A DNA stretch of 22,879 nucleotides from a virus (lineage: Duplodnaviria > Heunggongvirae > Uroviricota > Caudoviricetes): positions 1-22,879 of the IMG/VR virus record IMGVR_UViG_2695420699_000018. One strand, 5' to 3'. The notes under the pieces were generated by a model. It was not told the DNA's origin. It did no database searches and worked only from the letters and a program-made list of their open reading frames with translations. The translations under genes were made by a program, and so were the position numbers. This document shows, piece by piece, positions 1 through 15,469 of this stretch (position 1 is its first letter; every line of letters begins with the position of its first letter).

Positions 1-411
1 GAGTCCGAGCATTGCCCCCGTGCTGCTCATCTCGGACTCCTGTTCTTTCTTGGCGGTCAGCTCCGGATTTTTGACCATGCCACCCATTGCACCGGTGATG
101 GTGTTGCCCTGTCTGGCAATATTTTTCACGGCACGTCGCCAGAACTCATAGGCCACGCACCACCGCTCAAGTACCGCCAGGTCAGTCACGCACAGCAGGC
201 CCTGACCGCAGAGTTCTTTGGTTGTCAGTTGCCACATGATCGTGGCGAGAGGGAGATCTTCTTCAGCGAACCACTCCGGTGGCTCAACACCTTTGATGGG
301 CGTAAAAACAGGTTCATCTTTATTCAGGGCTCGCTTGCCGGGGTTTCCGGCCAGCGCCTTGCGCGCCGTTGGCTTGGGGCGACGCCCGGAACGCCCCGCC
401 GTTCCAGCCAT
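1..411 (-). CDS. Phage terminase small subunit (P27-like), copy 1, 3' end runs off the window
   Basis: DNA at 1..480 is near-identical to 2741..3220, which encodes the N-terminal part of the 2657..3151 TerS ORF. ATG (revcomp) at 409..411 preceded by AGGAG. Partial because the window starts inside the gene. Confidence 0.6.
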   Translation of the reverse strand, partial: MAGTAGRSGRRPKPTARKALAGNPGKRALNKDEPVFTPIKGVEPPEWFAEEDLPLATIMWQLTTKELCGQGLLCVTDLAVLERWCVAYEFWRRAVKNIARQGNTITGAMGGMVKNPELTAKKEQESEMSSTGAMLGL

Positions 412-1652: not shown

Positions 1653-1952
1653 ATGACAAAAACAGTATCAACCAGTAAAAAACCCCGTAAACAGCATTCG
1701 CCTGAATTTCGCAGTGAAGCCCTGAAGCTTGCTGAACGCATCGGTGTTACTGCCGCAGCCCGTGAACTCAGCCTGTATGAATCACAGCTCTACAACTGGC
1801 GCAGTAAACAGCAAAATCAGCAGACGTCTTCTGAACGTGAACTGGAGATGTCTACCGAGATTGCACGTCTCAAACGCCAGCTGGCAGAACGGGATGAAGA
1901 GCTGGCTATCCTCCAAAAGGCCGCGACATACTTCGCGAAGCGCCTGAAATGA
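1653..1952 (+). CDS. insE: IS3 transposase OrfA (HTH)
   Basis: [53 protein letters not shown]... recognised as IS3 OrfA. The track ORF begins at an upstream GTG (1644); the ATG is at 1653. Confidence 0.85.
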
Positions 1953-2597
1953 AGTATGTCTTTATTGAAAAACATCAGGCTGAGTTCAGCATCAAAGCAA
2001 TGTGCCGCGTGCTCCGGGTGGCCCGCAGCGGCTGGTATACGTGGTGTCAGCGGCGGACAAGGATAAGCACGCGTCAGCAGTTCCGCCAACACTGCGACAG
2101 CGTTGTCCTCGCGGCTTTTACCCGGTCAAAACAGCGTTACGGTGCCCCACGCCTGACGGATGAACTGCGTGCTCAGGGTTACCCCTTTAACGTAAAAACC
2201 GTGGCGGCAAGCCTGCGCCGTCAGGGACTGAGGGCAAAGGCCTCCCGGAAGTTCAGCCCGGTCAGCTACCGCGCACACGGCCTGCCTGTGTCAGAAAATC
2301 TGTTGGAGCAGGATTTTTACGCCAGTGGCCCGAACCAGAAGTGGGCAGGAGACATCACGTACTTACGTACAGATGAAGGCTGGCTGTATCTGGCAGTGGT
2401 CATTGACCTGTGGTCACGTGCCGTTATTGGCTGGTCAATGTCGCCACGCATGACGGCGCAACTGGCCTGCGATGCCCTGCAGATGGCGCTGTGGCGGCGT
2501 AAGAGGCCCCGGAACGTTATCGTTCACACGGACCGTGGAGGCCAGTACTGTTCAGCAGATTATCAGGCGCAACTGAAGCGGCATAATCTGCGTGGAA
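1949..2597 (+). pseudogene. insF: IS3 transposase OrfB (DDE), C-terminally truncated
   Basis: Track ORF 1949..2662 carries the IS3 OrfB integrase-core sequence (…[37 protein letters not shown]…[24 protein letters not shown]) then unrelated residues from about 2598. The C-terminal third of OrfB is absent. Confidence 0.8.
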
Positions 2598-2656
2598 ACG
2601 CACGACATCACGGGCATACTGATTGGCAGCATTTACGTTGGGGTAAGATTTCCGGC

Positions 2657-3151
2657 TCATGATTCGATGATTTTCAGAAACGGGTTAGTGGCTTTCTTCT
2701 GCCCCGCCAGGCCTATCAGACGCTGGCGGCTGCTGGGGTCGAGTCCGAGCATTGCCCCCGTGCTGCTCATCTCGGACTCCTGTTCTTTCTTGGCGGTCAG
2801 CTCCGGGTTTTTGACCCTGCCGCCCATTGCACCGGTGATGGTGTTGCCCTGGCTGGCAATATTTTTCACGGCACGTCGCCAGAACTCATAGGCCACGCAC
2901 CACCGCTCAAGTACCGCCAGGTCAGTCACGCACAGCAGGCCCTGACCGCAGAGTTCTTTGGTTGTCAGTTGCCACATGATCGTGGCGAGAGGGAGATCTT
3001 CTTCTGCGAACCACTCCGGTGGCTCAACACCTTTGATGGGCGTAAAAACAGGTTCATCTTTGTTCAGGGCTCGCTTGCCGGGGTTTCCGGCCAGCGCCTT
3101 GCGCGCCGTTGGCTTGGGGCGACGCCCGGAACGCCCCGCCGTTCCAGCCAT
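2657..3151 (-). CDS. Phage terminase small subunit (P27-like), copy 2
   Basis: Track ORF 2657..3160 (GTG); preferred ATG at 3151 ([25 protein letters not shown]…) with AGGAG SD. Sits immediately downstream of an HNH endonuclease, the usual HNH-TerS arrangement. The 3' end abuts the truncated IS3 rather than a large terminase gene. Confidence 0.65.
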
Positions 3152-3220
3152 ATGCGGCACTCCTGGTTAAATTTCATTTTTCGCGGGTATAAAAAAACGA
3201 TGGGGCGGGCGGTCCGGAAG
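2741..3220. repeat. Direct repeat copy B of the TerS 5' region (partner at 1..480)
   Basis: See copy A; read directly from the sequence. Confidence 0.85.
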
Positions 3221-5631: not shown

Positions 5632-5912
5632 TATTGCCTCAGATGATCAACCAGACGTGCAACGTTGCCTCTGACGGACACCAGCACGGAAAGAAAAATA
5701 GTATTAGCCACGATAATGGGCCATGAGGAATGGGGATAAATCCCACAGAGATAGGCCAACGGAACAGCACTGTATGTAACAGTAATCAGCCAGGCTAAAC
5801 GTGAAACCCAAGGACGATGCCGCGAATCACCACGACGATAAAACATCAGAGTAATAACAACACAAGCACATAACAGCGCATTTATAGTTGCTGTCGGGTC
5901 ATTTAGCTCCAC
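5631..5912 (-). CDS. Small multi-TM membrane protein, putative holin/antiholin
   Basis: 93 aa with about three hydrophobic helices (ALLCACVVITLMFY, LAWLITVTYSAVPLAYLCGIY, IIVANTIFLSVLV). Directly upstream of the endolysin; its stop overlaps the endolysin start. Confidence 0.5.
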   Translation of the reverse strand: MELNDPTATINALLCACVVITLMFYRRGDSRHRPWVSRLAWLITVTYSAVPLAYLCGIYPHSSWPIIVANTIFLSVLVSVRGNVARLVDHLRQ

Positions 5913-6285
5913 CTGAACCTCCCCGGCGCGTTATGAGCACCACCAGCGAGCCGATATCCTGATTATTCAGGAACGTCAGGATTTTAACGGCTAAAGCAGA
6001 GACGATTACGGCACCAATAGCATCCAGAGGTTTATCACTGTATCCGGTCAAGTTCGCCAGCTTGGAGCCAACCAACCCAGAGCAAAGGATCCCGGCAATA
6101 TATGACACGATAAAATATGCCAGTCGGCGCGATGCACTCAGATCTGCTGCTGTTGCTATGTAGAATACAGCCCCTGCAAATGCGCCAAATACAACGCCGT
6201 AATCAGTTCCGGTCAGCAGTCCATAAACACTGGCACCCGTCAGGGCACCACCAGCCAGCCCAGTACCGGAAATCGGATCGGACAT
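5899..6285 (-). CDS. Putative holin (glycine/alanine-rich membrane protein)
   Basis: 128 aa with G/A-rich TM segments (VVFGAFAGAVFYIATAA, AYFIVSYIAGILCSGLVG, AIGAVIVSALAVKIL). First membrane gene of the lysis cassette; 14-nt overlap with the next gene. Confidence 0.5.
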   Translation of the reverse strand: MSDPISGTGLAGGALTGASVYGLLTGTDYGVVFGAFAGAVFYIATAADLSASRRLAYFIVSYIAGILCSGLVGSKLANLTGYSDKPLDAIGAVIVSALAVKILTFLNNQDIGSLVVLITRRGGSGGAK

Positions 6286-6364
6286 TTAGCCCCCTCTTAA
6301 TTGCTGTTGGTCCTCTCAGATATGAGGGGAAGGGATCTTAATGACAGTCTGTTTATTATTTCAG

Positions 6365-6622
6365 TCAAACACTACCCTGTTGATGATTTCTCAGAAGCGA
6401 ACTTGACTCCCAGGGGAAACTCAACTTTCCGTTAAAACCACCAGCAGACATTCGTTCAATTTCCACAGAAATATCACTGAGCCGTTCTTCAAGCTCTGCT
6501 TTTTCTTTTACCAGACGGTTATAGCGGCTTAGATGAAGCTTTTGCTGCTCCAGCCAGTCTTCAAGCTGTTCAACAGTCATACAAGGGTTAAAAAAATATG
6601 GCTGCTGCTTTTCGCCCTGCAT
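6365..6622 (-). CDS. Hypothetical 85-aa coiled-coil-like protein in the slot between the late terminator and the lysis genes
   Basis: Track ORF 6365..6691; preferred start is the Met at 6622 (MQGEKQQPYFF…) with GGAGG 6 nt upstream. The tR'-like terminator lies just upstream of that start. Confidence 0.45.
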   Translation of the reverse strand: MQGEKQQPYFFNPCMTVEQLEDWLEQQKLHLSRYNRLVKEKAELEERLSDISVEIERMSAGGFNGKLSFPWESSSLLRNHQQGSV

Positions 6623-6640
6623 TATTGACCTCCAGAAAAG

Positions 6641-6666
6641 CAAAAACCCCGCCGAAGCGAGGTTTG
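6641..6666 (-). terminator. Intrinsic terminator, tR'-like (late-operon terminator downstream of Q)
   Basis: Minus strand reads CCTCGC-TTCG-GCGGGG-TTTTT: 6-bp stem with one G-U pair, tetraloop, T-run. About 110 nt downstream of the Q stop and just upstream of the first late ORF. Confidence 0.55.
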
Positions 6667-6772
6667 TTATGATTTCGTTAACGGCAGACATACAAAGCCC
6701 ATCGTTAGGAGAATCCTAACCATATTTTTTGAAAAATGCAAGCATCATGTCGCCATCTTCGGCGAAAATCAT

Positions 6773-7525
6773 TTATCTTGTCACTTTTCTCAATTGTGTC
6801 TCTGCATATGCTTCTTCCTGCCAGCACTTTGTAACCAGTTTATCAATGACACCTGCATATCCTTTGTACCACTGATAATCCGTCAGGTCCGGTACCAGCT
6901 TCTGGACATGATGCCGCGCCAGTGTGGTTGGTAAACGGCTAAACCGGTTTCCATTGCAACGCCCACAAATCTTATAAACAGGCGTGCCATGAAGCCGGGT
7001 TCTTTTTTCATCCAGGACAATACCTTTACCCTTACACCCTCTGCACGCTGTGCTGACTTCTCCCTTACCATGACAATGCTGACATAGTTCCTTCACCCAC
7101 TCCTCCTTGATAACAGATTCACCGCTTCTGGAGTGTTTCACCACTTCGCGCAATACATTATGAAATCCAGTACCAGCACAATGCTCACAGCGAGCCTTAC
7201 TTGCCGCAGACCTGGAATAATCAGCAAAGGCAAAATTCACAAGGTAAGGAATGATCTGTAGCCGGGTTTCTTCACTCAATTTATTCAATGTCGGGTTATC
7301 CAGTGCCATCGCGTAATTGAGCAGACCTTCAATCGCAAACTGAGGATCCTGAACACCAACTTTTGCCAGGAATAAGGCAAAACCCAGTGGTGCTTTCGAC
7401 TGCACCATCCCCTGCGCAGCCATCACATCCGTAATCGTTAAACCACCAGAGCCTGTCGCCGGTGCGTCATCGCTCAATTTTGGAGATTTTGGGGAGTAAT
7501 ATTTTGGTAAGGCTTCAAGGTTCAT
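6773..7525 (-). CDS. Late-gene antiterminator, Q-like (250 aa, Cys-rich zinc-binding)
   Basis: Several CxxC pairs (CEHCAGTG, CQHCHGKG, CRGCKGKG, CGRCNG). Position immediately upstream of the tR'-like terminator and lysis cassette. Length and position match the Qin-prophage YdfT-type Q as I recall it. Confidence 0.65.
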   Translation of the reverse strand: MNLEALPKYYSPKSPKLSDDAPATGSGGLTITDVMAAQGMVQSKAPLGFALFLAKVGVQDPQFAIEGLLNYAMALDNPTLNKLSEETRLQIIPYLVNFAFADYSRSAASKARCEHCAGTGFHNVLREVVKHSRSGESVIKEEWVKELCQHCHGKGEVSTACRGCKGKGIVLDEKRTRLHGTPVYKICGRCNGNRFSRLPTTLARHHVQKLVPDLTDYQWYKGYAGVIDKLVTKCWQEEAYAETQLRKVTR

Positions 7526-7538
7526 GCTCGTTCTCCAC

Positions 7539-8534
7539 TTACGCCAGTACGCCTATTGCCAGCGCACGATCGATAAAACGAAATATCAGCTCCAGCTGGG
7601 AGCCATACTTCTCTTCAAATGCCACGGTATCCGCATGCAGCTCGTCGTGATGCTTTCTGCACAAAGGCAACACAAAAAGGTCATGCGCTTTTGTACCCAT
7701 TCCACCCTGACCGTGGCCTATCAGGTGGTGGGGATCATCAGCAGGCTTTCCACAACATGCACACGGCTGTGTCTTAACCCAGCGCGTGTACTTTTCATTA
7801 ACCCAGCGGCGACGTTTTGGGCGTAACATAAAAGACTCCGGCGACTCCGGATCCACTTTCAGCGCCAGCACCTTTTTCGCCTTATCCTGGATGATGCTGG
7901 TGGCAGGAACCGAAGGCACAAGGTCACTTTCCCGGGTAACAGACGGCACAACAGGCTTCGGTAATCTCAGTGCCTTACGGGCTGCACTTTCCGGTAAGGC
8001 ATCCGCCAGATCATTACGAATCAGCCACCAGCACAGTTCCGGCATTGTCACAACGTGACTGTCATCAAAACCGAGATCCCGACGCACAACAGACAACACC
8101 CAGCGGGCACAGTTATCCGTTGCCATTGATTCCAGCCGTTCCGTGAACTGATCGCGCAGCTGGTTATCGCAGTGCCAGCACAGACGGATTGCACCCGGAG
8201 CGTGTCGCATTGTGGTCATGTTCTCGCTGTGCCAGTCGGAATGAGGCCACTGGCAGCCTTTTTCACGAAGTAACCAGCTTTCAAGACATTCCACGCCACC
8301 AGCACGACGGATCACTGCCTCATTGCGGAACACGGCCCGAACGGCAGGATCATCCGCCAGCGGTTGTGATGCCGCCGGAACGGCACCACTGGCGAAAGAT
8401 GAATAACGCTCCGGCTCAGGCTCCAGCAGGACACGCCCCTGCATAAACAGGGGCATCAGCTCTGAACCTGGCCTGAACAATACGATCCCCATACGCGGGG
8501 CAATTTCAGGGGTCAGTAGTGCTCTCACGGTCAC
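7539..8534 (-). CDS. DUF968-family protein (YdfU-like) with HNH-like C-terminal motif
   Basis: C-terminal CACCGKPADDPHHLIGHGQGGMGTKAHD…LCRKHHDELH is HNH-like. Recalled similarity to lambdoid prophage YdfU-type proteins. Sits between KilA-N and Q. Confidence 0.6.
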   Translation of the reverse strand: MTVRALLTPEIAPRMGIVLFRPGSELMPLFMQGRVLLEPEPERYSSFASGAVPAASQPLADDPAVRAVFRNEAVIRRAGGVECLESWLLREKGCQWPHSDWHSENMTTMRHAPGAIRLCWHCDNQLRDQFTERLESMATDNCARWVLSVVRRDLGFDDSHVVTMPELCWWLIRNDLADALPESAARKALRLPKPVVPSVTRESDLVPSVPATSIIQDKAKKVLALKVDPESPESFMLRPKRRRWVNEKYTRWVKTQPCACCGKPADDPHHLIGHGQGGMGTKAHDLFVLPLCRKHHDELHADTVAFEEKYGSQLELIFRFIDRALAIGVLA

Positions 8535-8535
8535 C

Positions 8536-9345
8536 TCAATGAACGGTATCGAGCAGCTTTAACAGCTCAGGGAATCGGGATTCGAAGAAATGCGGCTGCG
8601 TCTCGCGCGGATTTGCGGGACTGGTGATGTTCTTGCCGAACATGCAACCTTTCGCTGTCAGCGACCAGAATTTTTTGATGTTGTTAATCGCGGTACGGCT
8701 GTATCGTTCGCGCTGCTCGACGATCCCCAGTTTCACCATCTGGTGATATGCCTGATTAGCCGTCAGGCGTATACCATACTGTTTCAGCAGTGCACTCAGT
8801 GACAGTGTCGGGCGACTTGAGCCATCGTGTGCATCAGCAGGAGCATCAATGGCATAGCGCGGTGCCAGATTCGGTAAGCCAACAGCCTCCTGGAGTTTCT
8901 GACAGGCACCAAGCACTGAAGAGTTAGACAGGTTTAACTCCCGGCGCATAAAGTCCAGCAGGATCACGCCAGCCTGCATCTTGTCAGCAGCCTGTCCGGA
9001 TAATTTTTCCGGTGCGCTGGTTACCATATCGAAAGTACGGATCACCTTCAGATGGAATGACGGGCTGATCCACATTGCATAGGCATACACCAGTTCCTTG
9101 CAGACATACGTTCCCCGTTCATTTCCCCCATGAATCACACTCACCGGGTCAACACCCAAATTCTGGGTGTTGGTCAATTCATGAACAAGCTCAACAGTTT
9201 GTTGGCTGGAAAGAAACTTTCCCGGCTCCTTGGTTCTGGCATTTGCACCAGATGCTACTGCTGCGCGATGCAGATCGTTCAGGCTGTAACGCCCATAAGC
9301 ATCACGACGAACTTCAATACCATCAATGACCATCAGATTATTCAT
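8536..9345 (-). CDS. KilA-N domain protein (putative regulatory / antirepressor-like)
   Basis: Track ORF 8536..9378; preferred start is the Met at 9345 (MNNLMVIDGIEVRRDAYGRYSLNDLHRAA…) with GAGGAG SD. N-terminal sequence is KilA-N-like. Confidence 0.55.
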   Translation of the reverse strand: MNNLMVIDGIEVRRDAYGRYSLNDLHRAAVASGANARTKEPGKFLSSQQTVELVHELTNTQNLGVDPVSVIHGGNERGTYVCKELVYAYAMWISPSFHLKVIRTFDMVTSAPEKLSGQAADKMQAGVILLDFMRRELNLSNSSVLGACQKLQEAVGLPNLAPRYAIDAPADAHDGSSRPTLSLSALLKQYGIRLTANQAYHQMVKLGIVEQRERYSRTAINNIKKFWSLTAKGCMFGKNITSPANPRETQPHFFESRFPELLKLLDTVH

Positions 9346-9364
9346 ACTTCGTTTCTCCTCTTGA

Positions 9365-9754
9365 TCAGGCGGCTGCACCCGCCGTTTTCTCGTACTTACT
9401 GATAGTGATCTCGACCTTCCCTTTCGGGATAACCGGTCCCCACTCCACCAGCATTCTTTTCACCTGACTGTCGTCTTCCCACACACCCGCATGGGTCAGG
9501 GCGTCAAACAGCGCCTTGTTATAGTTGTCCAGATCGCGGATCCGGTTATCCGGAGGAAACAACACGATCTCCACTGAAGCAGGTGCCGACGTTGGTTTCG
9601 GCAGACGACGTAACTGCTCAACTATTGCTGCGCACGCCGCGCTCTGGAATTTTCGCCCCGCCGAGCTTATCAGGCTCTTACCAGCAAACGCCCCTTTGTT
9701 GGGGTGTCGCCAGTACGTGTTCACGCTGGGCGGAAAAGGCAGGATCAGCTTCAT
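9365..9754 (-). CDS. rusA: RusA-family Holliday junction resolvase
   Basis: MKLILPFPPSVNTYWRH…DLDNYNKALFDALTHAGVWEDDSQV matches RusA catalytic-region signatures. ATGA start/stop overlap with the upstream gene. Confidence 0.85.
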   Translation of the reverse strand: MKLILPFPPSVNTYWRHPNKGAFAGKSLISSAGRKFQSAACAAIVEQLRRLPKPTSAPASVEIVLFPPDNRIRDLDNYNKALFDALTHAGVWEDDSQVKRMLVEWGPVIPKGKVEITISKYEKTAGAAA

Positions 9755-10077
9755 ACTTTCAGGTCCCTCTCATGTAACCAGTGGGTTGCACGCAGCCTTG
9801 CGTTTTCCTCACCGGCAAGCAGTGCGCGGATAATCCCGACCGCCTCGCTGTCGTCGTCCTTCACCGCGGTATGAAGCGTTATCCCCCGGGCCACGCCACG
9901 CTTTATCGTGATGACGCCTTTTTTCTCCAGTGCGCGAAGATGCTCCACCGCTGCATTCACTGAACGGTATCCCAGCATGGTTGCCACCTCCTGATTGGTT
10001 GGCGGAAAGCCACGCTCTTGCTGGTAAGAAATCAGCATATCCAGCACCTGCTGCTGGCATTGAGTTAACGTCGTCAT
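9751..10077 (-). CDS. LexA-type N-terminal DNA-binding domain protein without the S24 peptidase domain
   Basis: Aligns with the E. coli LexA N-terminus (recalled): QQQVLDMLISYQQERGFPPTNQEVATMLGYRSVNAAVEHLRALEKKGVITI versus [52 protein letters not shown]. Only 108 aa; no Ser/Lys peptidase domain. ATGA-coupled to neighbours. Confidence 0.7.
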   Translation of the reverse strand: MTTLTQCQQQVLDMLISYQQERGFPPTNQEVATMLGYRSVNAAVEHLRALEKKGVITIKRGVARGITLHTAVKDDDSEAVGIIRALLAGEENARLRATHWLHERDLKV

Positions 10078-10727
10078 GCCGCCATCTCCCTGACAAGTTT
10101 TTCTGCCTGCTGGCGAACCTGCGCCAGAAACGCCTCACCACATGCCTCAAGTTCATCGCGCCCGATGTAGCTGATTGCCGGTCCCTTCCAGGTCTTGTCG
10201 AAAACAGCAATAGCACCAGCGAAGAAAGCGCCTGTCGGCACCTGCTTCTCATCCTTCGGGATAAACCAGGCAGGCAGTTCAAAACCAATACGCCCGCGAA
10301 TAAAAGCAATATGGTCCGCATCTTCCGGCCACCACACTTCGCTGGTGGCAGCTTTGATCAGGAAAACATAGCGCCCGCCCTTATCACGCATGGCACTGGC
10401 ATGTTTCATGATGTAACGCATGCCGGTGATGTATTGCCCCTCATGCTGACTGGCGCGGCTGTATGGGGGATTACCAAAGGCAGCACCTTTAAGCTCCGCA
10501 AGACGTTCTGACCAGTCATGTGCCAGCGCGTTGTCTTCCGCCGTGTAATACGCGGCACATTTGGCGTTATCACCGTCAGTGAACAGATCCAGAACAAACG
10601 GACCAAACAGGGTGTTAATTCCCCAGAAAATGTTATCCGGCGTGCGCCACTGATCGCCTACTTCCTTCAGTTCATGGGCTGGTTTGTTCCGCAGTTCCAC
10701 CAGCGCCTGGCAATATTTATTACTCAT
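10074..10727 (-). CDS. Phage-type DNA N6-adenine methyltransferase (Dam-like)
   Basis: NPPY catalytic motif (AAFGNPPYS). Track ORF starts at 10760; the Met at 10727 (MSNKYCQALVEL…) forms a TAATG overlap with the upstream gene stop. Confidence 0.8.
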   Translation of the reverse strand: MSNKYCQALVELRNKPAHELKEVGDQWRTPDNIFWGINTLFGPFVLDLFTDGDNAKCAAYYTAEDNALAHDWSERLAELKGAAFGNPPYSRASQHEGQYITGMRYIMKHASAMRDKGGRYVFLIKAATSEVWWPEDADHIAFIRGRIGFELPAWFIPKDEKQVPTGAFFAGAIAVFDKTWKGPAISYIGRDELEACGEAFLAQVRQQAEKLVREMAA

Positions 10728-11221
10728 TAAGCCCCCACGTAATTCCCTGACAGATACCACTCTTCACCTGATGCAGCCCGCTTATTGCTTTTCCGTAAAC
10801 ACCGCTCACGACGTGCCAGAAAATTGTTTCGTTCTGGCTGGGAGTGGCTTTCACGGAATGCCGCCATCCACACCGTTGCAGCACGACGGTATAAGCCCCT
10901 GGACTCCAGTTCTTCAGCCTGGCGGGTCAGGCACAAAATCACCCGGGGATCGTTAGTGCCGACATAGAAATTGCGCACAGGTCTGGTTTCACGAACTGGT
11001 TGTGGTTCCGGTTCCTGCGCTCTCTCAGTCAGGCGCGGGAAATGTCTGCGTGTATCTCCTTCACAACGGTGATCCACACGCCCACTCTGACGTAACTTGC
11101 TTGCTGACTGCAGAACGCGCTGCCGTGAGTAACCTGCAAAAGCATCCGCAATGTCTCCGGAAGTACACCCCGGATGGGCTTCAATGAATTTCTGAACGTC
11201 ATTCAAAAGACTCATAATCAC
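10727..11221 (-). CDS. Hypothetical regulator, possibly PerC-family with an N-terminal winged-helix-like region
   Basis: C-terminal …LTRQAEELESRGLYRRAATVWMAAFRE… resembles the PerC-family core as I recall it. ATGA-coupled to the O-like gene. Family assignment is tentative. Confidence 0.4.
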   Translation of the reverse strand: MIMSLLNDVQKFIEAHPGCTSGDIADAFAGYSRQRVLQSASKLRQSGRVDHRCEGDTRRHFPRLTERAQEPEPQPVRETRPVRNFYVGTNDPRVILCLTRQAEELESRGLYRRAATVWMAAFRESHSQPERNNFLARRERCLRKSNKRAASGEEWYLSGNYVGA

Positions 11222-12036
11222 CCCCTGAATCCTGCCGGGATCTGGCTGTAGTCCACGTTGTCGTAACTGGCTTTGAAGTACGGGTCCTCGCGTCTGGCTG
11301 CAGATACCGCAGGAACTTCCCAGGATTCTTCGAAATGACGATCCGGACCAAAGAACGTGACAGCCTGTTTCACAAATTGTGTGCCGCTGTTACCCATCGC
11401 AGATACCCAGCACGAGTAGCGTTTCACACCTTCCAGCATGGTTTCGGGGTTTACCCCCTCATTCAAACGGGCTTTCCAGGCTTTGAAGGCTGCTGATTTT
11501 GAATTGCCACCAGCACGTTTGGGGTATGCCAGCCATGCCTGCTCAAACTCCGGAGAGTATTCCGGTCGGTTTGAACGAACTCGCACAGACTCATCAGCAG
11601 ATGCACCAACAGCTATTGGTTCATTGACTGGTTCTTTGACTGGTTCAAAAGAGTGACTGGTTCTGGGTGAATCTCCTGCACTACCCCCTGGTGCAACTCC
11701 TGCACTACCTAGTGAATTTGCTGCACCAGATAGTGAATTATTTGCACTACCCCCTAGTGAATCTCCTGCACCATCAAGATGAAGAAGATAGATATTACTT
11801 GAGTTACCTTTTTCACCTTTCCGGGTGACTTTTTTTACCAGCCCGGACTCACAGAGGGCCGCAATATGATTCATCACAGAACGTTTGCTAATCTCGCACT
11901 GATCAGCGATATGCTGATAGCTGGGCCAGCACTCGCCCTGATCGCTGGCATTATCAGCCAGCTTAATCAGAACCAGTTTTCGCAATGGATTTCCCACTCG
12001 AATTTTCATCGCTTTAACCATCAGCTCCATACTCAT
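11218..12036 (-). CDS. Replication initiator, lambda-O-like (N-terminal HTH, iteron-encoded linker, C-terminal domain)
   Basis: N-terminal HTH (…ADNASDQGECWPSYQHIADQCEISKRSVMNHIAALCESGLVKK…). The low-complexity G/S/A/N linker is encoded by the iteron array at 11667..11775. Sits in the early-right operon downstream of Cro. Confidence 0.65.
   Translation of the reverse strand: MSMELMVKAMKIRVGNPLRKLVLIKLADNASDQGECWPSYQHIADQCEISKRSVMNHIAALCESGLVKKVTRKGEKGNSSNIYLLHLDGAGDSLGGSANNSLSGAANSLGSAGVAPGGSAGDSPRTSHSFEPVKEPVNEPIAVGASADESVRVRSNRPEYSPEFEQAWLAYPKRAGGNSKSAAFKAWKARLNEGVNPETMLEGVKRYSCWVSAMGNSGTQFVKQAVTFFGPDRHFEESWEVPAVSAARREDPYFKASYDNVDYSQIPAGFRG
11667..11775. repeat. Iteron array (five about 19-bp direct repeats at about 22-bp spacing): candidate replication origin inside the initiator gene
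   Basis: Units GTGAATCTCCTGCACTACC (11667), GTGCAACTCCTGCACTACC (11691), GTGAATTTGCTGCACCAGA (11712), GTGAATTATTTGCACTACC (11734), GTGAATCTCCTGCACCATC (11757). Three copies of (T/G)TGACTGGTTC lie just upstream at 11624, 11636 and 11653. Confidence 0.6.
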
Positions 12037-12257
12037 GCAGCACCTCCGAGATGCTTCATGTTTTTTCCGGAGCGAAAGGCTATAAGCGGCATACTGACGC
12101 GGTAACTACGGCCCAGCGGTTCACAAATCACCTTCTGACATTCACGGTCAACCAGGCTAACACGTAGAACATGCCCTGCAGGTGTGGTGTACCACTGACC
12201 CGGACGAGGACAACGGAAAGTCTGATTGGTAAACCGTTTGAAAATATTCCGGATCAT
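12033..12257 (-). CDS. Hypothetical 74-aa protein, translationally coupled between the Rha-domain and O-like genes
   Basis: ATGA overlaps at both ends (12254/12257 and 12033/12036). No recognised family. Confidence 0.4.
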   Translation of the reverse strand: MIRNIFKRFTNQTFRCPRPGQWYTTPAGHVLRVSLVDRECQKVICEPLGRSYRVSMPLIAFRSGKNMKHLGGAA

Positions 12258-13405
12258 TTGCGCCCCCTTACCTCTGAAGGGTTCAGCGACAAATTTATGA
12301 GGCAGGCCAGTGCCGAAGCATCATTAATATAGTCATACAAGCTAACAGCCAGCGGAGATTCGGCTTTTGCCAACATAGGATAAAGCTGCTGCAGCCAGAC
12401 CTGATGAATTGATGAAATGTAGGAATAGAGAACGCTGGCGTTATGTGCAACGTCGCTCAGTACAGAGGGATTTGAAAGCTGTTTCTCCATCTGGTTAAAG
12501 GCATTGATGTATGCCTCTTTGAACTGGGCAGCACGTTTACCCGTGAAACCCATAGCAAGAAACGCAAAGCCGTCGCGGGTTATTTGGTAGCAAGGAAGTT
12601 TGCGACCTGTGCAATCAGTGTAATCACTCACCGAAAAATTGCGGGCAGTGAATGATGCTGAGCATTCAAGCGTGCGGATCTTTTTCAGTACATCGTCATG
12701 ACGTTTGGAGAAGAAGTTGGCAACAGCCAGGGATGAAGTAACAGCCTGACCATCAACGATGGCAATTTCAGGTTGAGTGAGGGTTGGGATCGTAGCCATG
12801 ATGGCAGCCTCTTTGGTGATTTTTAATAACTCACCACCAAGGCTTTCCACGACCTTATTGGTGGTGAGACGTACAGGGGTGGAAATACCGGTCACCAAAG
12901 AACCCGGCCCAACCGAAGTTGGCCCTGCACGCCCCACCATAATTTGGGCGTAATGCTGCTCATGACACAAAAAAACCGCAAGAGCGCGGTTGTGCGCTTT
13001 GGTGAATTCCGGGTTTCCACGCCCGGCACCCGTTTTATAAGGTGCCTGAACAGTGTAACGTCCCGGAATGGCAGAATCAATGTGCTGGTGGTCCTTCACA
13101 CTCAACAAAATCACGCCTGAATTTCCACAAAGGACTAAAGCACTCATGCGGGTAGTCTTTGCGAAGATAGATAACGCGCTGTGTTTCTGGTTCCCAACGA
13201 ATAACATGGACATAAAGCCCTCTTCCGTCACGAAACCAGCGGTTAAGTTCCTGCACAACTCGCCCCCCACAGTCAGGTAAAGTTCTCTGTGGTTACTTAC
13301 AGCCAGGTGATTTGGTAATCTGCATTCATGCCGTAACAACAGGTGTTCAGCGACACTGACCACCAGCTGTTGCGACAAACGGTTATTTGCCGTTAAACTG
13401 TTCAT
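12254..13405 (-). CDS. Rha-family phage regulatory protein with an uncharacterised about 200-aa N-terminal extension
   Basis: C-terminal half has the Phage_pRha-like core (…FFSKRHDDVLKKIRTLE…YQITRDGFAFLAMGFTGKRAAQFKEAYINAF). The frame is open for about 600 nt upstream and its ATG at 13405 makes an ATGA overlap with the preceding gene. An internal ATG at 12799 with strong AAAGAGG SD is an alternative start for a 182-aa Rha-only product. Confidence 0.5.
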   Translation of the reverse strand: MNSLTANNRLSQQLVVSVAEHLLLRHECRLPNHLAVSNHRELYLTVGGELCRNLTAGFVTEEGFMSMLFVGNQKHSALSIFAKTTRMSALVLCGNSGVILLSVKDHQHIDSAIPGRYTVQAPYKTGAGRGNPEFTKAHNRALAVFLCHEQHYAQIMVGRAGPTSVGPGSLVTGISTPVRLTTNKVVESLGGELLKITKEAAIMATIPTLTQPEIAIVDGQAVTSSLAVANFFSKRHDDVLKKIRTLECSASFTARNFSVSDYTDCTGRKLPCYQITRDGFAFLAMGFTGKRAAQFKEAYINAFNQMEKQLSNPSVLSDVAHNASVLYSYISSIHQVWLQQLYPMLAKAESPLAVSLYDYINDASALACLINLSLNPSEVRGRK

Positions 13406-13959
13406 GCGTTAGTTTCTCCACAACCAGAAGCAATCGACGCCACGACGCCCGGAGCTGCACACTCGCGGGCGTTACTCTTTTCTGGAGCGCAAAAGATTTT
13501 GTAGACCAGTGCTGCATGCTCCTGGAGCTTCGAAATTGACAGATACAACTCATCATTAATTGCTGTCTGCTCGTGTGGCTCCACGACCCCATCTTCGATT
13601 GCCGAACGAATCTGCTTTGAGTAATTCCCGATCTGTTCGATGACTTCCAGCAGGCGCTGGTTTATATCGGCGTTCTCTACTTCCTCAATTTCAGGAAGCG
13701 ATACGAACACCCCACCGGCAGACTGTGCGACAGCATCCGCAATGTAGTGAGTGCCAGCCGCGCGCTGTAAAACCATTGCCCATCCCAGCGGGAAAATCTG
13801 ATCGCCATCTGCACGAAGGCGGTTGAATAAAGCGTTCTCTGTTACATCCAGCCAGTCAGCAGCTTCAGCGTAACCCCCAGGCAATGCCGCGATAGTTTTT
13901 CTGACAGCTTTCACGTACCACTCAGGCTGTTTTTCTACTTTCCAGTGATGATTACCCAC
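13402..13959 (-). CDS. Putative CII/YdaT-like early regulatory protein
   Basis: Track ORF 13402..14070 overlaps the cro-like gene. A GTG at 13959 with GAGGAA SD 6 nt upstream lies 28 nt after the cro stop; ATG starts at 14037 or 14034 are alternatives. Family assignment is from position (immediately after cro) and vague recollection only. Confidence 0.35.
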   Translation of the reverse strand: MGNHHWKVEKQPEWYVKAVRKTIAALPGGYAEAADWLDVTENALFNRLRADGDQIFPLGWAMVLQRAAGTHYIADAVAQSAGGVFVSLPEIEEVENADINQRLLEVIEQIGNYSKQIRSAIEDGVVEPHEQTAINDELYLSISKLQEHAALVYKIFCAPEKSNARECAAPGVVASIASGCGETNA

Positions 13960-13987
13960 GGTTAATTCCTCGTTTCTGTGGTTACGT

Positions 13988-14251
13988 TTACGCAGCTGAA
14001 CCGCTAACTTTTGAATAGCACTCAGGTAATCCATCATTTGGATTGGGGTAAATATCAGGACGCAGTTCATGAGGGGTCACGGACCAGTTTCCCAACTCAC
14101 AAAGTTGTAAAACCCGTTCTGACGGGACTTGATTGTTAATTACCCAATTAGCGACGGATTGAGTGGACTTAAAACCAAAGCGACGGGCTACTTCAGATAA
14201 AGATTTTCCCGCAGCTTTTACTGCTTTCTCTGTGTAGTTTTGAGATGACAT
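13988..14251 (-). CDS. Cro-like HTH regulator (YdaS/Cro family)
   Basis: HTH segment (SLSEVARRFGFKSTQSVANWV). Divergent from the CI-like gene across an operator-rich intergenic region. AGGAGA SD. Confidence 0.7.
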   Translation of the reverse strand: MSSQNYTEKAVKAAGKSLSEVARRFGFKSTQSVANWVINNQVPSERVLQLCELGNWSVTPHELRPDIYPNPNDGLPECYSKVSGSAA

Positions 14252-14260
14252 ACCTTTCTC

Positions 14261-14367
14261 CTCTGAAATTCAGAGGGATAATGCTACTTAAAATAGCAAA
14301 ATGCAACTACTTAAAATAGAAATGACTAGCGTATGTGATGTGAGTAATCTTCTACCTATGGTAGAAG
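14261..14367. promoter_or_regulatory. Immunity-region operator cluster (OR-like)
   Basis: Palindrome CTCTGAA-A-TTCAGAG at 14261..14275; two 13-bp direct repeats CTACTTAAAATAG at 14284..14296 and 14307..14319; palindrome CTTCTACC-TAT-GGTAGAAG at 14349..14367 overlapping the proposed cI ATG. Shared half-site theme CTAC…GTAG. Confidence 0.6.
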
Positions 14368-15062
14368 AACAGAAGTATCCAGATTTCGCCAAGAGACTAA
14401 ACGAGCTAATGACAAACAAGGGAATTTCTGTCACCCAACTCAAAAGTCTTGTGGGCGTTACATATGAAATGGCGCGGCGATACACAATCGGCGCTGCGAA
14501 GCCTCGTGCCTCTGTCATGAATAAACTTGCATTGGCTCTGGGGGTATCAGCTTCATATTTAGAATATGGTGTTGGCGAGAGAGAAGGATGTAAGGAAATG
14601 ACAAGCATCCCCAATCCAACAAAACCCGATGTATACAGGATAGAAGTTTTGGATCTTAGCGTTAGCGCGGGACCTGGGACCTATATGCTTTCAGACTATG
14701 TTGATGTGCTCTACGCCATTGAGTTCACAACAGAACATGCCCGTTCTCTTTTCGGCAACCGTTCTCAGGATGATATTAAGGTTATGACTGTAAATGGCGA
14801 TAGTATGTCCCCTACTCTCGTTTCCGGAGACCGACTGTTTGTCGACATTTCTGTTCGTCACTTCCAGACTGATGGAGTTTACTCTTTCGTTTACGGTAAG
14901 ACTTTTCATGTTAAACGTCTTCAAATGCAAGGTGACAAGCTAGCCGTTCTTTCGGATAACCCCGCCTATGAGAAATGGTACATCGATGAAAAATCACAGG
15001 ATCAGCTTTATGTAATGGGCAAGGCGTTGATTCACGAATCTATAAAATACAACCGATTGTAA
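14358..15062 (+). CDS. CI-like prophage repressor (N-terminal HTH plus C-terminal S24 LexA-like peptidase domain)
   Basis: HTH (…FAKRLNELMTNKGISVTQLKSLVGVTYEMARRY…) and S24 motifs (GDSMSPT active-site Ser; Lys in …FHVKRL…). Track start at 14301 lies inside operator repeats; the Met at 14358 (MVEEQKYPDF…) is preferred, possibly leaderless as for lambda cI. Confidence 0.85.
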   Translation: MVEEQKYPDFAKRLNELMTNKGISVTQLKSLVGVTYEMARRYTIGAAKPRASVMNKLALALGVSASYLEYGVGEREGCKEMTSIPNPTKPDVYRIEVLDLSVSAGPGTYMLSDYVDVLYAIEFTTEHARSLFGNRSQDDIKVMTVNGDSMSPTLVSGDRLFVDISVRHFQTDGVYSFVYGKTFHVKRLQMQGDKLAVLSDNPAYEKWYIDEKSQDQLYVMGKALIHESIKYNRL

Positions 15063-15106
15063 AACTCAATCCTTTCAGGATTAAAAGATCTAAAAGGATA
15101 ATAATA

Positions 15107-15469
15107 ATGAAATCTGAACTATTTCATAGCGAAGCAAATTCAGAAATTATCACTGCAGATGAGTTTATTGATTTCATAAACTCTTTCAAAAAGCCTTTAA
15201 TTTGCCAAATTTGCGGAAATCAATCATGGAGTGTAGTCGGTACTCTAGAACTTGAAGTTGAAGACAATCAGCCAAAACATCACGTAATCGAAGTTCTCAG
15301 CTATGCCCAATACAAACCTGAAACTGATAGCGCTATAAATTATCCTGGTGGTATGCCGCTGTTTCGAATCACCTGTGATCACTGTGCACATGTACTTCTT
15401 TTTTCTTATAAAAAAGCTAGATCATTGATCCAAAAAAGAAAAAATGAAAAAGAAGAGGATGGAAAATGA
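15107..15469 (+). CDS. Hypothetical zinc-ribbon-like protein (two CxxC pairs, basic C-terminal tail), first gene of an AT-rich module downstream of cI
   Basis: CQIC (about aa 33) and CDHC (about aa 91); tail KKARSLIQKRKNEKEEDGK. AAGGA SD. Strong AT bias. Same strand as cI and immediately downstream of it. Confidence 0.6.
   Translation: MKSELFHSEANSEIITADEFIDFINSFKKPLICQICGNQSWSVVGTLELEVEDNQPKHHVIEVLSYAQYKPETDSAINYPGGMPLFRITCDHCAHVLLFSYKKARSLIQKRKNEKEEDGK

What the first reader, a model, noticed from the sequence alone, without database searches (positions are those of the whole stretch)
9751..10077. LexA DNA-binding-domain-only protein in the nin-like region: possible uncleavable SOS-box binder
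Seen in sequence: a 108-aa ORF that aligns across the whole LexA N-terminal winged-helix domain but stops before the S24 peptidase domain, translationally coupled (ATGA overlaps) between the Dam-like methylase and RusA. Established knowledge: full-length LexA autocleaves through its C-terminal domain on RecA activation; the isolated N-domain cannot. Inference: a phage-encoded, non-inducible LexA-like binder that could occupy SOS boxes or phage sites regardless of DNA damage.
Basis: partly seen in the sequence, partly recalled or inferred. Interest (0 to 1): 0.5.

Follow-up and report, generated by a model that had tools for sequence, protein, structure and literature searches.

The report
Phage-encoded LexA DNA-binding-domain protein
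A small, strongly conserved prophage gene encodes only the DNA-binding half of the bacterial DNA-damage repressor LexA plus a short helical tail, so it has no self-cleaving domain through which DNA damage could inactivate it; the gene is very common in E. coli and already annotated, but I found no test of its function.

Summary
Window 9751..10077 (-) encodes a 108-aa protein. Residues 1-70 are a LexA winged-helix domain (Pfam E=2.6e-19; 1.0-1.3 Å rmsd to E. coli LexA). Four of LexA's five DNA-contact residues are kept. Residues 71-108 form a conserved two-helix tail instead of the S24 peptidase domain. ATGA overlaps couple the gene to Dam upstream and RusA downstream.

It is a real gene under purifying selection (pN/pS 0.14). 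It belongs to PHROG 362, which includes SfV orf42 and mEp460 gp46. The surrounding 2.3-kb segment matches about half of complete E. coli genomes, where the gene is annotated "LexA family protein". I found no functional study.

The SOS-box-binder reading is plausible but unproven. The window has no SOS box. GIL01 gp6, the only characterised LexA-domain-only phage protein I found, is an activator with its own operator.

New supporting evidence comes from a sister branch of the family. There the gene lies in a LexA-box-controlled cassette (UmuD-like, DinI, orfX, LexA-like) in 27 of 34 loci.

Best guess (confidence 0.4): a RecA-insensitive binder of LexA-type operators, made during lytic growth.

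The parts
9751..10077 (-). LexA-like ORF, 108 aa plus stop (PHROG 362; counterpart of SfV orf42 and mEp460 gp46)
   Evidence: pN/pS 0.14
9868..10077 (-). Residues 1-70: LexA-type winged helix-turn-helix (helices 6-22, 28-35, 40-52; strands 56-58, 66-68)
   Evidence: Pfam PF01726 E=2.6e-19; AF2 model; Foldseek to 1lea/3jso at 1.0-1.3 Å
9922..9963 (-). Residues 39-52: recognition helix SVNAAVEHLRALEK. S39, N41, A42 and E45 are as in E. coli LexA; E44 is V
   Evidence: contact residues from PMC3091678; no nonsynonymous polymorphism in residues 34-47
9754..9867 (-). Residues 71-108: linker plus two-helix tail (helices 74-88 and 93-103) that replaces the S24 domain. Family consensus EAVxxIRALLAGExxARxRAxxWLxxxG. 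Proposed, not shown, to be a dimerisation or partner-binding element
   Evidence: AF2; alignments A1-A3; pN/pS 0.24; no structural match for the tail
10074..10077 (-). ATGA overlap: Dam stop codon and LexA-like start codon
   Evidence: sequence
9751..9754 (-). ATGA overlap: LexA-like stop codon and RusA start codon
   Evidence: sequence
10086..10089 (-). GGAG Shine-Dalgarno, 8 nt upstream of the ATG, inside the Dam coding sequence
   Evidence: sequence
10074..10760 (-). Phage Dam-type N6-adenine methyltransferase. The likely true start is the ATG at 10727, giving 217 aa as annotated in mEp460
   Evidence: PF05869 E=1e-45, TIGR01712 255 bits
9365..9754 (-). RusA Holliday-junction resolvase, translationally coupled downstream
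   Evidence: PF05866; adjacent or near-adjacent to the LexA-like gene in most lineages (not Klebsiella ST846 or Edwardsiella EPP-1), down to 38% identity
6773..11221 (-). Operon context: PerC-like (10727..11221), Dam, LexA-like, RusA, KilA-N (8536..9378), DUF968/HNH (7539..8534), Q antiterminator (6773..7525). Genes overlap or abut, and no promoter-like site was found inside on the minus strand
13988..15062 (.). Immunity region: cro-like (13988..14251, minus) and cI with HTH plus S24 peptidase (14301..15062, plus). This is where the early-right promoter that would express the gene is presumed to lie
6347..6366 (.). Best SOS-box-like site in the window, GTCTGTTTATTATTTCAGTC, 9.5 bits, in the gap upstream of the holin gene. 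Not significant; listed only as the top candidate

Best explanation

Shown:
- It has a LexA-type winged helix with four of LexA's five base-contact residues, and no peptidase domain.
- A conserved two-helix tail replaces the C-terminal domain.
- The gene sits in the cI-repressed early-right operon, tightly coupled to Dam and RusA.
- It is under purifying selection.

Inferred:
- The protein is made only after induction or infection.
- The tail supplies the dimerisation that LexA's missing C-terminal domain normally provides.
- The dimer binds LexA-type (CTGT-containing) operators.
- Because RecA-stimulated self-cleavage is impossible, it keeps or restores repression of LexA-controlled promoters while host LexA is being destroyed. 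Targets would be host SOS genes and the LexA-controlled genes of co-resident mobile elements. In relatives, targets would also include the phage's own LexA-boxed genes.

The result would be a phage-run damper or off-switch on the SOS regulon.
For: - Fold and sequence: LexA_DNA_bind E=2.6e-19; ungapped alignment to E. coli LexA 2-70; 1.0-1.3 Å rmsd.
- Contact residues: S39, N41, A42 and E45 are retained (PMC3091678), and residues 34-47 are invariant across 101 alleles.
- Precedent for the fragment: the isolated LexA N-terminal fragment retains some SOS-box binding and repression, and is cleared by ClpXP (PMC10584840). The phage protein ends in ...DLKV rather than LexA's exposed VAA. That the VAA end is the ClpX signal is from my memory of Neher et al. 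2003.
- Company it keeps: in the P0137-like branch of the same PHROG (phrog_362, E=8e-40), the gene follows canonical LexA-repressed promoters (-35, -10, then a 17.5-30 bit SOS box). The cassette is [box]-UmuD-like-[box]-DinI-orfX-LexA-like. 27 of 34 loci have a box within 1.5 kb upstream. 35 of 45 boxes fall in the 13% of sequence that lies upstream (binomial p=7e-23). Counting distinct box sequences gives 19 of 26 (p=3e-12).
- The same pattern occurs in L174, L170 and Edwardsiella phage EPP-1.
- Close relatives of the window often carry very strong SOS boxes within 10 kb (44 of 80 loci).
Against: - The window has no credible SOS box: best 9.5 bits against a mean shuffled maximum of 10.7 and 12.6-26.6 for real boxes. 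36 of 80 close loci also have none.
- Box presence is not significantly linked to gene presence: 43 of 69 loci with the gene against 3 of 10 without, p=0.08, and the comparison is confounded by linkage.
- E44 is never kept in the tailed family. E45 is replaced (G, L, I or D) in several members, including ones that sit directly behind perfect SOS boxes (SPNAVALHLRAL; P0217). That argues against a universal SOS-box target.
- GIL01 gp6 shows that a LexA-domain-only phage protein can have a different operator and activate transcription (PMC6182141).
- No binding data exist.
Confidence: 0.4

Rival explanations
1. It is a phage-specific transcription factor with its own, non-SOS operator, working like GIL01 gp6. 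It would activate or repress a phage promoter, for example timing of late or accessory genes, and merely descends from LexA.
For: - gp6 is a truncated LexA homologue that binds GaCACAnnTGTGaC and activates late promoter P3 (PMC6182141).
- Contact positions 42, 44 and 45 vary among members in enterobacterial hosts, as expected if operators co-evolve with the protein.
- E44 is lost in the whole tailed family.
- The window has no SOS box.
- The fixed position just upstream of Q, in a conserved module, fits a phage-internal role.
Against: - No conserved alternative palindrome turned up in the window's intergenic regions.
- Late genes here already have a Q antiterminator with a downstream promoter-terminator region.
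- The window's branch keeps four of the five LexA contact residues without any polymorphism.
- The sister branch travels with SOS modulators (DinI, UmuD-like), which points to the SOS network.
Confidence: 0.3
2. It is a DNA-binding accessory of the neighbouring DNA-transaction enzymes, RusA or the methyltransferase, rather than a transcription factor. It might recruit or restrain them on DNA.
For: - RusA is the adjacent or near-adjacent downstream gene in most lineages, down to 38% identity, and is often joined by a start/stop overlap.
- A DNA methyltransferase (Dam, C5 or a fusion) sits upstream in most lineages: the window, L165, L169, L172/173 and L174.
Against: - RusA and phage Dam occur widely without this gene (my background knowledge; also L164 and others).
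- Several lineages lack the methyltransferase (mEp390, L166-168, L042) or have RusA separated or missing (Klebsiella ST846, L165).
- Retention of base-specific LexA contact residues suggests sequence-specific operator binding.
Confidence: 0.1
3. It acts through protein-protein contacts, for example as a decoy or adaptor for LexA, RecA filaments or a protease, using the winged helix or the tail, and not by binding DNA.
For: - Winged-helix domains can be protein-binding modules; there is a weak Foldseek hit to the RPA32 C-terminal domain.
- The tail is conserved and has no known fold match.
- An A88-G89 pair aligns with LexA's A84-G85 cleavage site.
Against: - As far as I recall, RecA and the protease active site engage LexA's C-terminal domain and cleavage loop, not the DNA-binding domain.
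- The A-G pair is not conserved: V-G, T-G and A-E occur in relatives, A88S and A88V alleles exist, and the pair lies in a predicted helix.
- The strongest conservation is in the DNA-recognition helix.
Confidence: 0.05
4. It is a decaying remnant of a captured lexA gene with no present function.
For: - Frameshifted and truncated copies exist in the databases.
- The window's prophage carries an IS element near terS, so it may be defective.
Against: - pN/pS is 0.14 over 101 alleles.
- Length, tail and synteny are conserved down to 38% identity.
- The gene is present in isolated phages (SfV, mEp460, cdtI, Stx2 phages).
Confidence: 0.03

Closest known systems
Host SOS repressor LexA (E. coli; PDB 1lea, 3jso; TIGR00498)
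   Same: Same winged-helix DNA-binding domain. Residues 1-70 align without gaps at about 50% identity and 1.0-1.3 Å rmsd. S39, N41, A42 and E45 are retained.
   Different: No S24 peptidase or dimerisation domain and no Ser/Lys dyad. It scores below the TIGR00498 cutoff. E44 is V. A 38-residue two-helix tail takes the place of the C-terminal domain. It is phage-borne and placed in a cI-repressed operon rather than behind its own SOS boxes.
GIL01 (Bacillus thuringiensis tectivirus) gp6, a truncated LexA homologue that activates late promoter P3 (PMC6182141)
   Same: A phage-encoded protein made of a LexA DNA-binding domain without the cleavage domain. It is expressed early in the lytic programme of an SOS-inducible temperate phage.
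   Different: No detectable BLASTP similarity to gp6, so this is an independent capture from a gammaproteobacterial LexA. gp6 is 66 aa with no tail. Its operator (GaCACAnnTGTGaC) and activator role are shown experimentally, whereas nothing is known for this protein. This phage also has a Q antiterminator for late genes.
The LexA N-terminal cleavage fragment (residues 1-84)
   Same: A LexA DNA-binding domain detached from the C-terminal domain. It is reported to keep residual SOS-box binding and repression (PMC10584840).
   Different: The host fragment is degraded by ClpXP (PMC10584840). From memory, this is through its exposed C-terminal VAA, and it dimerises only weakly on DNA. The phage protein has a different, structured C-terminus (...HERDLKV) that might stabilise it and dimerise it; both are inferred.
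Other PF01726-only phage proteins (PHROG 362 and relatives; BFVD hits including Mycobacterium phage Wildcat and Tectiviridae)
   Same: Short phage proteins (65-150 aa in the BFVD hits) built on the LexA winged helix, widely annotated as 'LexA DNA-binding domain protein' or 'transcriptional repressor'.
   Different: Most are the bare domain of about 70 aa. This family adds the conserved two-helix tail and a fixed place in the [methyltransferase]-LexA-like-RusA-DUF968-Q module.

Membership tests
Canonical LexA SOS repressor (TIGR00498) | N-terminal LexA-type winged helix-turn-helix (PF01726) | tested here: met
   E=2.6e-19, profile positions 1-65 of 65; rmsd 1.0-1.3 Å to 1lea/3jso
Canonical LexA SOS repressor (TIGR00498) | C-terminal S24 peptidase and dimerisation domain with the Ser119/Lys156 dyad | tested here: not met
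   The protein ends at residue 108. There is no PF00717 hit. TIGR00498 aligns only to positions 1-91 of 203. RusA starts at the stop codon.
Canonical LexA SOS repressor (TIGR00498) | Whole-protein score above the curated equivalog cutoff | tested here: not met
   70.3 bits against a cutoff of 110.95
Canonical LexA SOS repressor (TIGR00498) | Ala-Gly self-cleavage site in a strand-loop region | tested here: inconclusive
   A88-G89 aligns with LexA A84-G85. However, it lies in a predicted helix, is V-G, T-G or A-E in relatives, and varies among alleles as A88S and A88V. With no catalytic domain, self-cleavage is excluded. Cleavage in trans was not tested.
Canonical LexA SOS repressor (TIGR00498) | Specific binding to CTGT-N8-ACAG SOS boxes as a dimer | not testable with these tools
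   Indirect only: four of five contact residues are kept (PMC3091678). A dimer model could not be run.
PHROG 362 / tailed LexA-DBD phage proteins | Full-length match to the family profile (DNA-binding domain plus tail, about 106 aa) | tested here: met
   E=6e-59, residues 1-108 against profile positions 1-106 of 106. 95-99% identical to SfV orf42, mEp460 gp46, the cdtI copy and Stx2c phage copies.
PHROG 362 / tailed LexA-DBD phage proteins | Position in the [PerC]-[methyltransferase]-LexA-like-RusA-[KilA-N/Rha]-DUF968-Q module of lambdoid prophages | tested here: met
   Window; mEp460, mEp390, Klebsiella and Edwardsiella phages; L165-L174
GIL01 gp6-type truncated LexA activators | Phage protein consisting of a LexA DNA-binding domain without the S24 domain | tested here: met
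   gp6 described in PMC6182141
GIL01 gp6-type truncated LexA activators | Sequence relatedness to gp6 | tested here: not met
   BLASTP finds no alignment at E<=100
GIL01 gp6-type truncated LexA activators | Binds its own palindrome overlapping the -35 of a late promoter and activates it | not testable with these tools
   No conserved non-SOS palindrome was found in the window, which is weak negative evidence only.

The most novel reading that the evidence does not exclude
Roughly half of E. coli strains carry a prophage gene for an uncleavable LexA look-alike. During prophage induction or infection it re-imposes repression on the SOS regulon after host LexA has been destroyed. That would shut down host repair, mutagenesis and toxin genes, and block LexA-controlled rivals (186/Gifsy-type antirepressors, colicin operons). 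In the sister branch it would act together with phage DinI and UmuD-like proteins as a dedicated, LexA-box-driven, self-limiting SOS off-switch cassette.
Probability: 0.3. Interest if true: 0.7.

Novelty: new variant of a known kind. Interest (0 to 1): 0.45.

Why it matters
If the protein binds SOS boxes, many pathogenic and commensal E. coli carry a second LexA-type repressor that cannot self-cleave. That includes lysogens of Stx2 phages and Shigella serotype-converting phages. Such a repressor would alter SOS dynamics exactly when prophages are induced. This bears on Shiga-toxin release, on SOS-dependent mutagenesis and resistance evolution, and on competition among prophages and colicin plasmids.

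If it instead has its own operator, it would be a second, independent case, after GIL01 gp6, of a phage turning the LexA domain into a private regulator.

Either way the family is abundant and cheap to test, and I found no study of it. The sister-branch cassette (UmuD-like, DinI, orfX, LexA-like behind canonical LexA promoters) is a concrete, testable unit of phage interference with the SOS response.

Tried and rejected
- **A88-G89 as a cleavage site.** Rejected. The pair is not conserved in relatives, varies among alleles, and lies in a predicted helix.
- **Exact CTGT-Nx-ACAG sites in the window.** Counts for x=0-20 show no enrichment. The single perfect N8 site (13287-13302) lies inside the Ash/Rha ORF and scores only 7.8 bits.
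- **Other operators.** An inverted-repeat search of 5800-15200 found nothing operator-like apart from the hairpin downstream of Q.
- **The 6347-6366 site.** It overlaps a promoter-like hit upstream of the holin gene. Neither is above chance, and its resemblance to the strong box in relatives is not positional homology, because that box sits at the start of a methylase gene.
- **Gene presence against SOS-box presence.** The DUF968-anchored loci gave an inconclusive result (p=0.08).
- **Database scans with little return.** The genome-contig scan returned mostly genuine host lexA genes. It was useful only as a positive control for the PWM: L234 has boxes of 22.5 and 13.6 bits just upstream of lexA. 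The A5 alignment was too divergent to search with. P0217 had no viral-contig relatives.
- **Literature.** Eight full-text searches found no study of the enterobacterial family. The LexA-DNA crystal-structure paper (PMC2921665) is not held, so the contact residues come from a secondary citation.
- **Defence-system models.** PADLOC gave only a weak, irrelevant hit.

Full report
**1.
- The minus strand carries an ATG-to-TGA ORF of 108 aa at 9751..10077.
- The sequence shows ATGA at 10077..10074, where the stop of the upstream Dam-type methylase overlaps the ORF's ATG. It shows ATGA again at 9754..9751, where the ORF's stop overlaps the RusA ATG. A GGAG lies 8 nt upstream of the start.
- Pfam LexA_DNA_bind matches residues 1-65 over the whole 65-position profile at E=2.6e-19. 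Dam (PF05869) and RusA (PF05866) are confirmed as the neighbours.
- phmmer against PDB aligns residues 2-70 to E. coli LexA residues 2-70 without a gap.
- An AlphaFold2 model (mean pLDDT 84) gives the LexA topology: helices 6-22, 28-35 and 40-52, with a two-strand wing at 56-58 and 66-68. It superposes on solved E. coli LexA (1lea, 3jso) at 1.0-1.3 Å with about 50% identity.
- There is no S24 peptidase domain. NCBIfam's lexA equivalog aligns only to positions 1-91 of 203 and scores 70.3 bits against a cutoff of 110.95.

**2. It is not a bare N-domain.** Residues 71-108 are predicted as a linker plus two helices (74-88 and 93-103). The tail is conserved across about eight 50%-identity clusters of homologues, with consensus EAVxxIRALLAGExxARxRAxxWLxxxG. 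It has no structural match in PDB or BFVD. HMMER extends the LexA alignment through the hinge, so that A88-G89 falls on LexA's A84-G85 cleavage site. That pair is V-G, T-G or A-E in relatives, varies among alleles, and lies in a predicted helix. I treat it as a vestige of descent, not a cleavage site.

**3. It is a real, selected, very common gene.**
- Across 147 copies (101 distinct alleles) there are 72 synonymous and 31 nonsynonymous variants. This gives pN/pS 0.14 overall, 0.07 for the DNA-binding domain and 0.24 for the tail, with no amino-acid change in residues 34-47.
- The protein matches PHROG 362 ("transcriptional repressor") end to end at E=6e-59.
- It is 95-99% identical to genes in SfV (orf42), SfII, SfIV, cdtI, mEp460, and Stx2a, Stx2c and Stx2k phages.
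- The 2.3-kb segment around it matches 2705 of 5426 complete E. coli genomes, 1630 of them at 80% coverage or more. PGAP calls the gene "LexA family protein/transcriptional regulator".
- The window is an SfV-like prophage at tRNA-Thr(CGT) next to a proA-like gene.
- The gene order is cI(S24)/cro, cII-like, Ash/Rha, replication, PerC-like, Dam, LexA-like, RusA, KilA-N, DUF968/HNH, Q, then a promoter-terminator region and lysis genes. The genes overlap or abut, and no promoter-like site lies inside the block on the minus strand. Expression from the cI-repressed early-right promoter, during lytic growth only, is therefore the natural inference.

**4. Synteny is deep.** The order [PerC]-[DNA methyltransferase: Dam, C5 or fusion]-LexA-like-RusA-[KilA-N or Rha/ANT]-DUF968-Q recurs in homologues down to 38% identity from several enterobacterial hosts. 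RusA is the most constant neighbour and is often joined by a start/stop overlap.

**5. What is known.** Eight full-text searches found no functional study of this enterobacterial family.
- The one characterised analogue is GIL01 gp6. It is a 66-aa truncated LexA homologue that binds GaCACAnnTGTGaC at the -35 of late promoter P3 and activates it, while host LexA plus gp7 repress the same promoter (PMC6182141).
- gp6 has no detectable BLASTP similarity to the window protein. The two are therefore independent captures of a LexA domain.
- BFVD shows many further LexA-domain-only phage proteins. Some bacterial relatives carry two LexA domains in tandem with no S24 domain.
- The isolated LexA N-terminal fragment is reported to retain some SOS-box binding and repression, and to be removed by ClpXP (PMC10584840).

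**6. Does it bind SOS boxes? Evidence for.**
- LexA's DNA-contact residues are Ser39, Asn41, Ala42, Glu44 and Glu45 (PMC3091678). The window protein has S, N, A, V and E at those positions, with no polymorphism there.
- A sister branch of the same PHROG gives new evidence. This is the P0137-like branch (the L278 protein hits phrog_362 at E=8e-40).
- In that branch the gene sits behind textbook LexA-repressed promoters: a -35, a -10, and a 17.5-30 bit SOS box at or just after the -10.
- The full cassette is [box]-UmuD-like (phrog_3469)-[box]-DinI (PF06183)-orfX (phrog_1813)-LexA-like-phrog_1212-(RusA)-DUF968-Q.
- 27 of 34 loci have such a box within 1.5 kb upstream.
- 35 of 45 boxes lie in the 13% of sequence upstream of the gene (p=7e-23). 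Counting distinct box sequences gives 19 of 26 (p=3e-12). The loci share descent, so these p-values overstate the independence of the data.
- The boxes differ in sequence but keep the consensus, which indicates selection on the LexA site.
- The same arrangement occurs in L170/171, L174 and Edwardsiella phage EPP-1.
- Travelling with DinI and a UmuD-like gene under LexA control ties the family to the SOS network.

**7. Evidence against, or limits.**
- The SOS position-weight matrix was built from 19 E. coli boxes that I recalled from memory. It was validated on a genuine host lexA locus, with boxes of 22.5 and 13.6 bits just upstream.
- In the window its best hit is 9.5 bits. The mean shuffled maximum is 10.7, and real boxes score 12.6-26.6. 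This copy therefore has no SOS box within 22.9 kb.
- Among 80 close relatives, 44 carry very strong boxes within 10 kb. These lie inside cI ORFs, between rusA and an alternative kilA-N allele, and at the start of a late methylase gene. The other 36 have none.
- Loci with and without the gene do not differ significantly in box presence: 43 of 69 against 3 of 10, p=0.08.
- Position 44 is never Glu in the tailed family.
- Position 45 is G, L, I or D in several members whose hosts are enterobacteria, which as far as I know share one SOS-box consensus. This includes members directly behind perfect boxes. For them the box may simply be the input (SOS-induced expression) and not the protein's target.
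- Dimerisation by the tail could not be modelled.

**8. Verdict on mechanism.**
- *Best supported (0.4).* A RecA-insensitive binder of LexA-type operators, made in the lytic phase, that dampens or re-represses LexA-controlled promoters. The fold, contact residues, lack of a peptidase domain, operon position, selection and SOS-cassette association are shown. DNA targets, dimerisation and physiological effect are inferred.
- *Main rival (0.3).* A gp6-like private regulator with its own operator.
- *Minor rivals.* An accessory of RusA or the methyltransferase (0.1), a protein-protein decoy (0.05), or a dead remnant (0.03).

**9. Novelty and interest.** The gene is already catalogued in Pfam, PHROG and PGAP, and the idea of a truncated phage LexA has a precedent. 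It is therefore not categorically new. It is an independently derived variant with an added conserved tail and a fixed place in the lambdoid nin-like module. In its sister branch it forms part of a LexA-driven cassette of SOS modulators. It is abundant, I found no study of it, and it is easy to test. I rate interest at 0.45.

Noticed in passing
L013 4515-4534; L008 6444-6463; L169 2836-2855; L001 (mEp460) 9334-9353: Perfect or near-perfect SOS boxes (TACTGTTTTTAYATACAGTA, 25.7-27.1 bits) lie inside cI repressor coding sequences, in the linker between the HTH and the S24 domain. This is seen in 25 of 80 close relatives and in a diverged cI (L169). The window's cI has none. A LexA site inside a repressor gene (roadblock, or antisense promoter control) is unexplained.
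   Followed up: partly
L278 4837-6327 (also L261-L282, L289, L170, L174, L003): A sister-branch prophage cassette: [SOS box]-UmuD-like (109 aa, phrog_3469)-[SOS box]-DinI-orfX (phrog_1813, about 75-100 aa)-LexA-like-phrog_1212 (67 aa)-(RusA)-DUF968-Q. In these prophages Q appears to lie in the same run of genes downstream of the LexA-controlled promoter. orfX and phrog_1212 have no known function.
   Followed up: partly
L042 10765-10784 (7 loci): Some close relatives lack Dam and have a 150-bp gap after rusA with a 21.6-bit SOS box (TACTGTATTTATGAACAGTG) in front of an alternative kilA-N allele. This implies a LexA-controlled KilA-N (antirepressor-like) gene inside the nin region.
   Followed up: partly
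L015 13919-13938; L174 10739-10758: A strong SOS box overlaps the first codons (MKNTVKINS...) of a 352-aa late-region DNA methyltransferase in 20 loci. A similar box lies just upstream of an N6_N4 methyltransferase in a distant prophage.
   Followed up: no
proteins P0126, P0133, P0144, P0149, P0154, P0157, P0162: Proteins of 140-220 aa with two LexA DNA-binding domains in tandem and no S24 domain. They look like single-chain pseudo-dimers and come from varied bacteria.
   Followed up: no
window 1-300 and 2741-3040; 1644-2662; 2657-3160: A 300-nt direct repeat (98% identical) flanks an IS-type transposase (rve domain, 1949..2662) beside the small terminase gene. A second, 74%-identical 132-nt repeat pair lies nearby. 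The prophage's packaging region may be disrupted or duplicated.
   Followed up: partly
window 12254-13405 (-): A single 383-aa ORF combines Ash (PF10554) and Rha (PF09669) domains. It contains a terminator-like hairpin at 12974-12991 and the window's only perfect CTGT-N8-ACAG (13287-13302, a weak 7.8 bits).
   Followed up: no
L174 11794-13390: A distant prophage carries a solo Cas1 gene next to an AcrVA2-like gene between Q and the lysis genes.
   Followed up: no
L170 5863-7232: A bacterial RNase-A-like toxin gene and a CdiI-like immunity gene (the latter a faint Pfam hit) are inserted in the nin region just upstream of the SOS-box promoter of the orfX/LexA-like unit.
   Followed up: no
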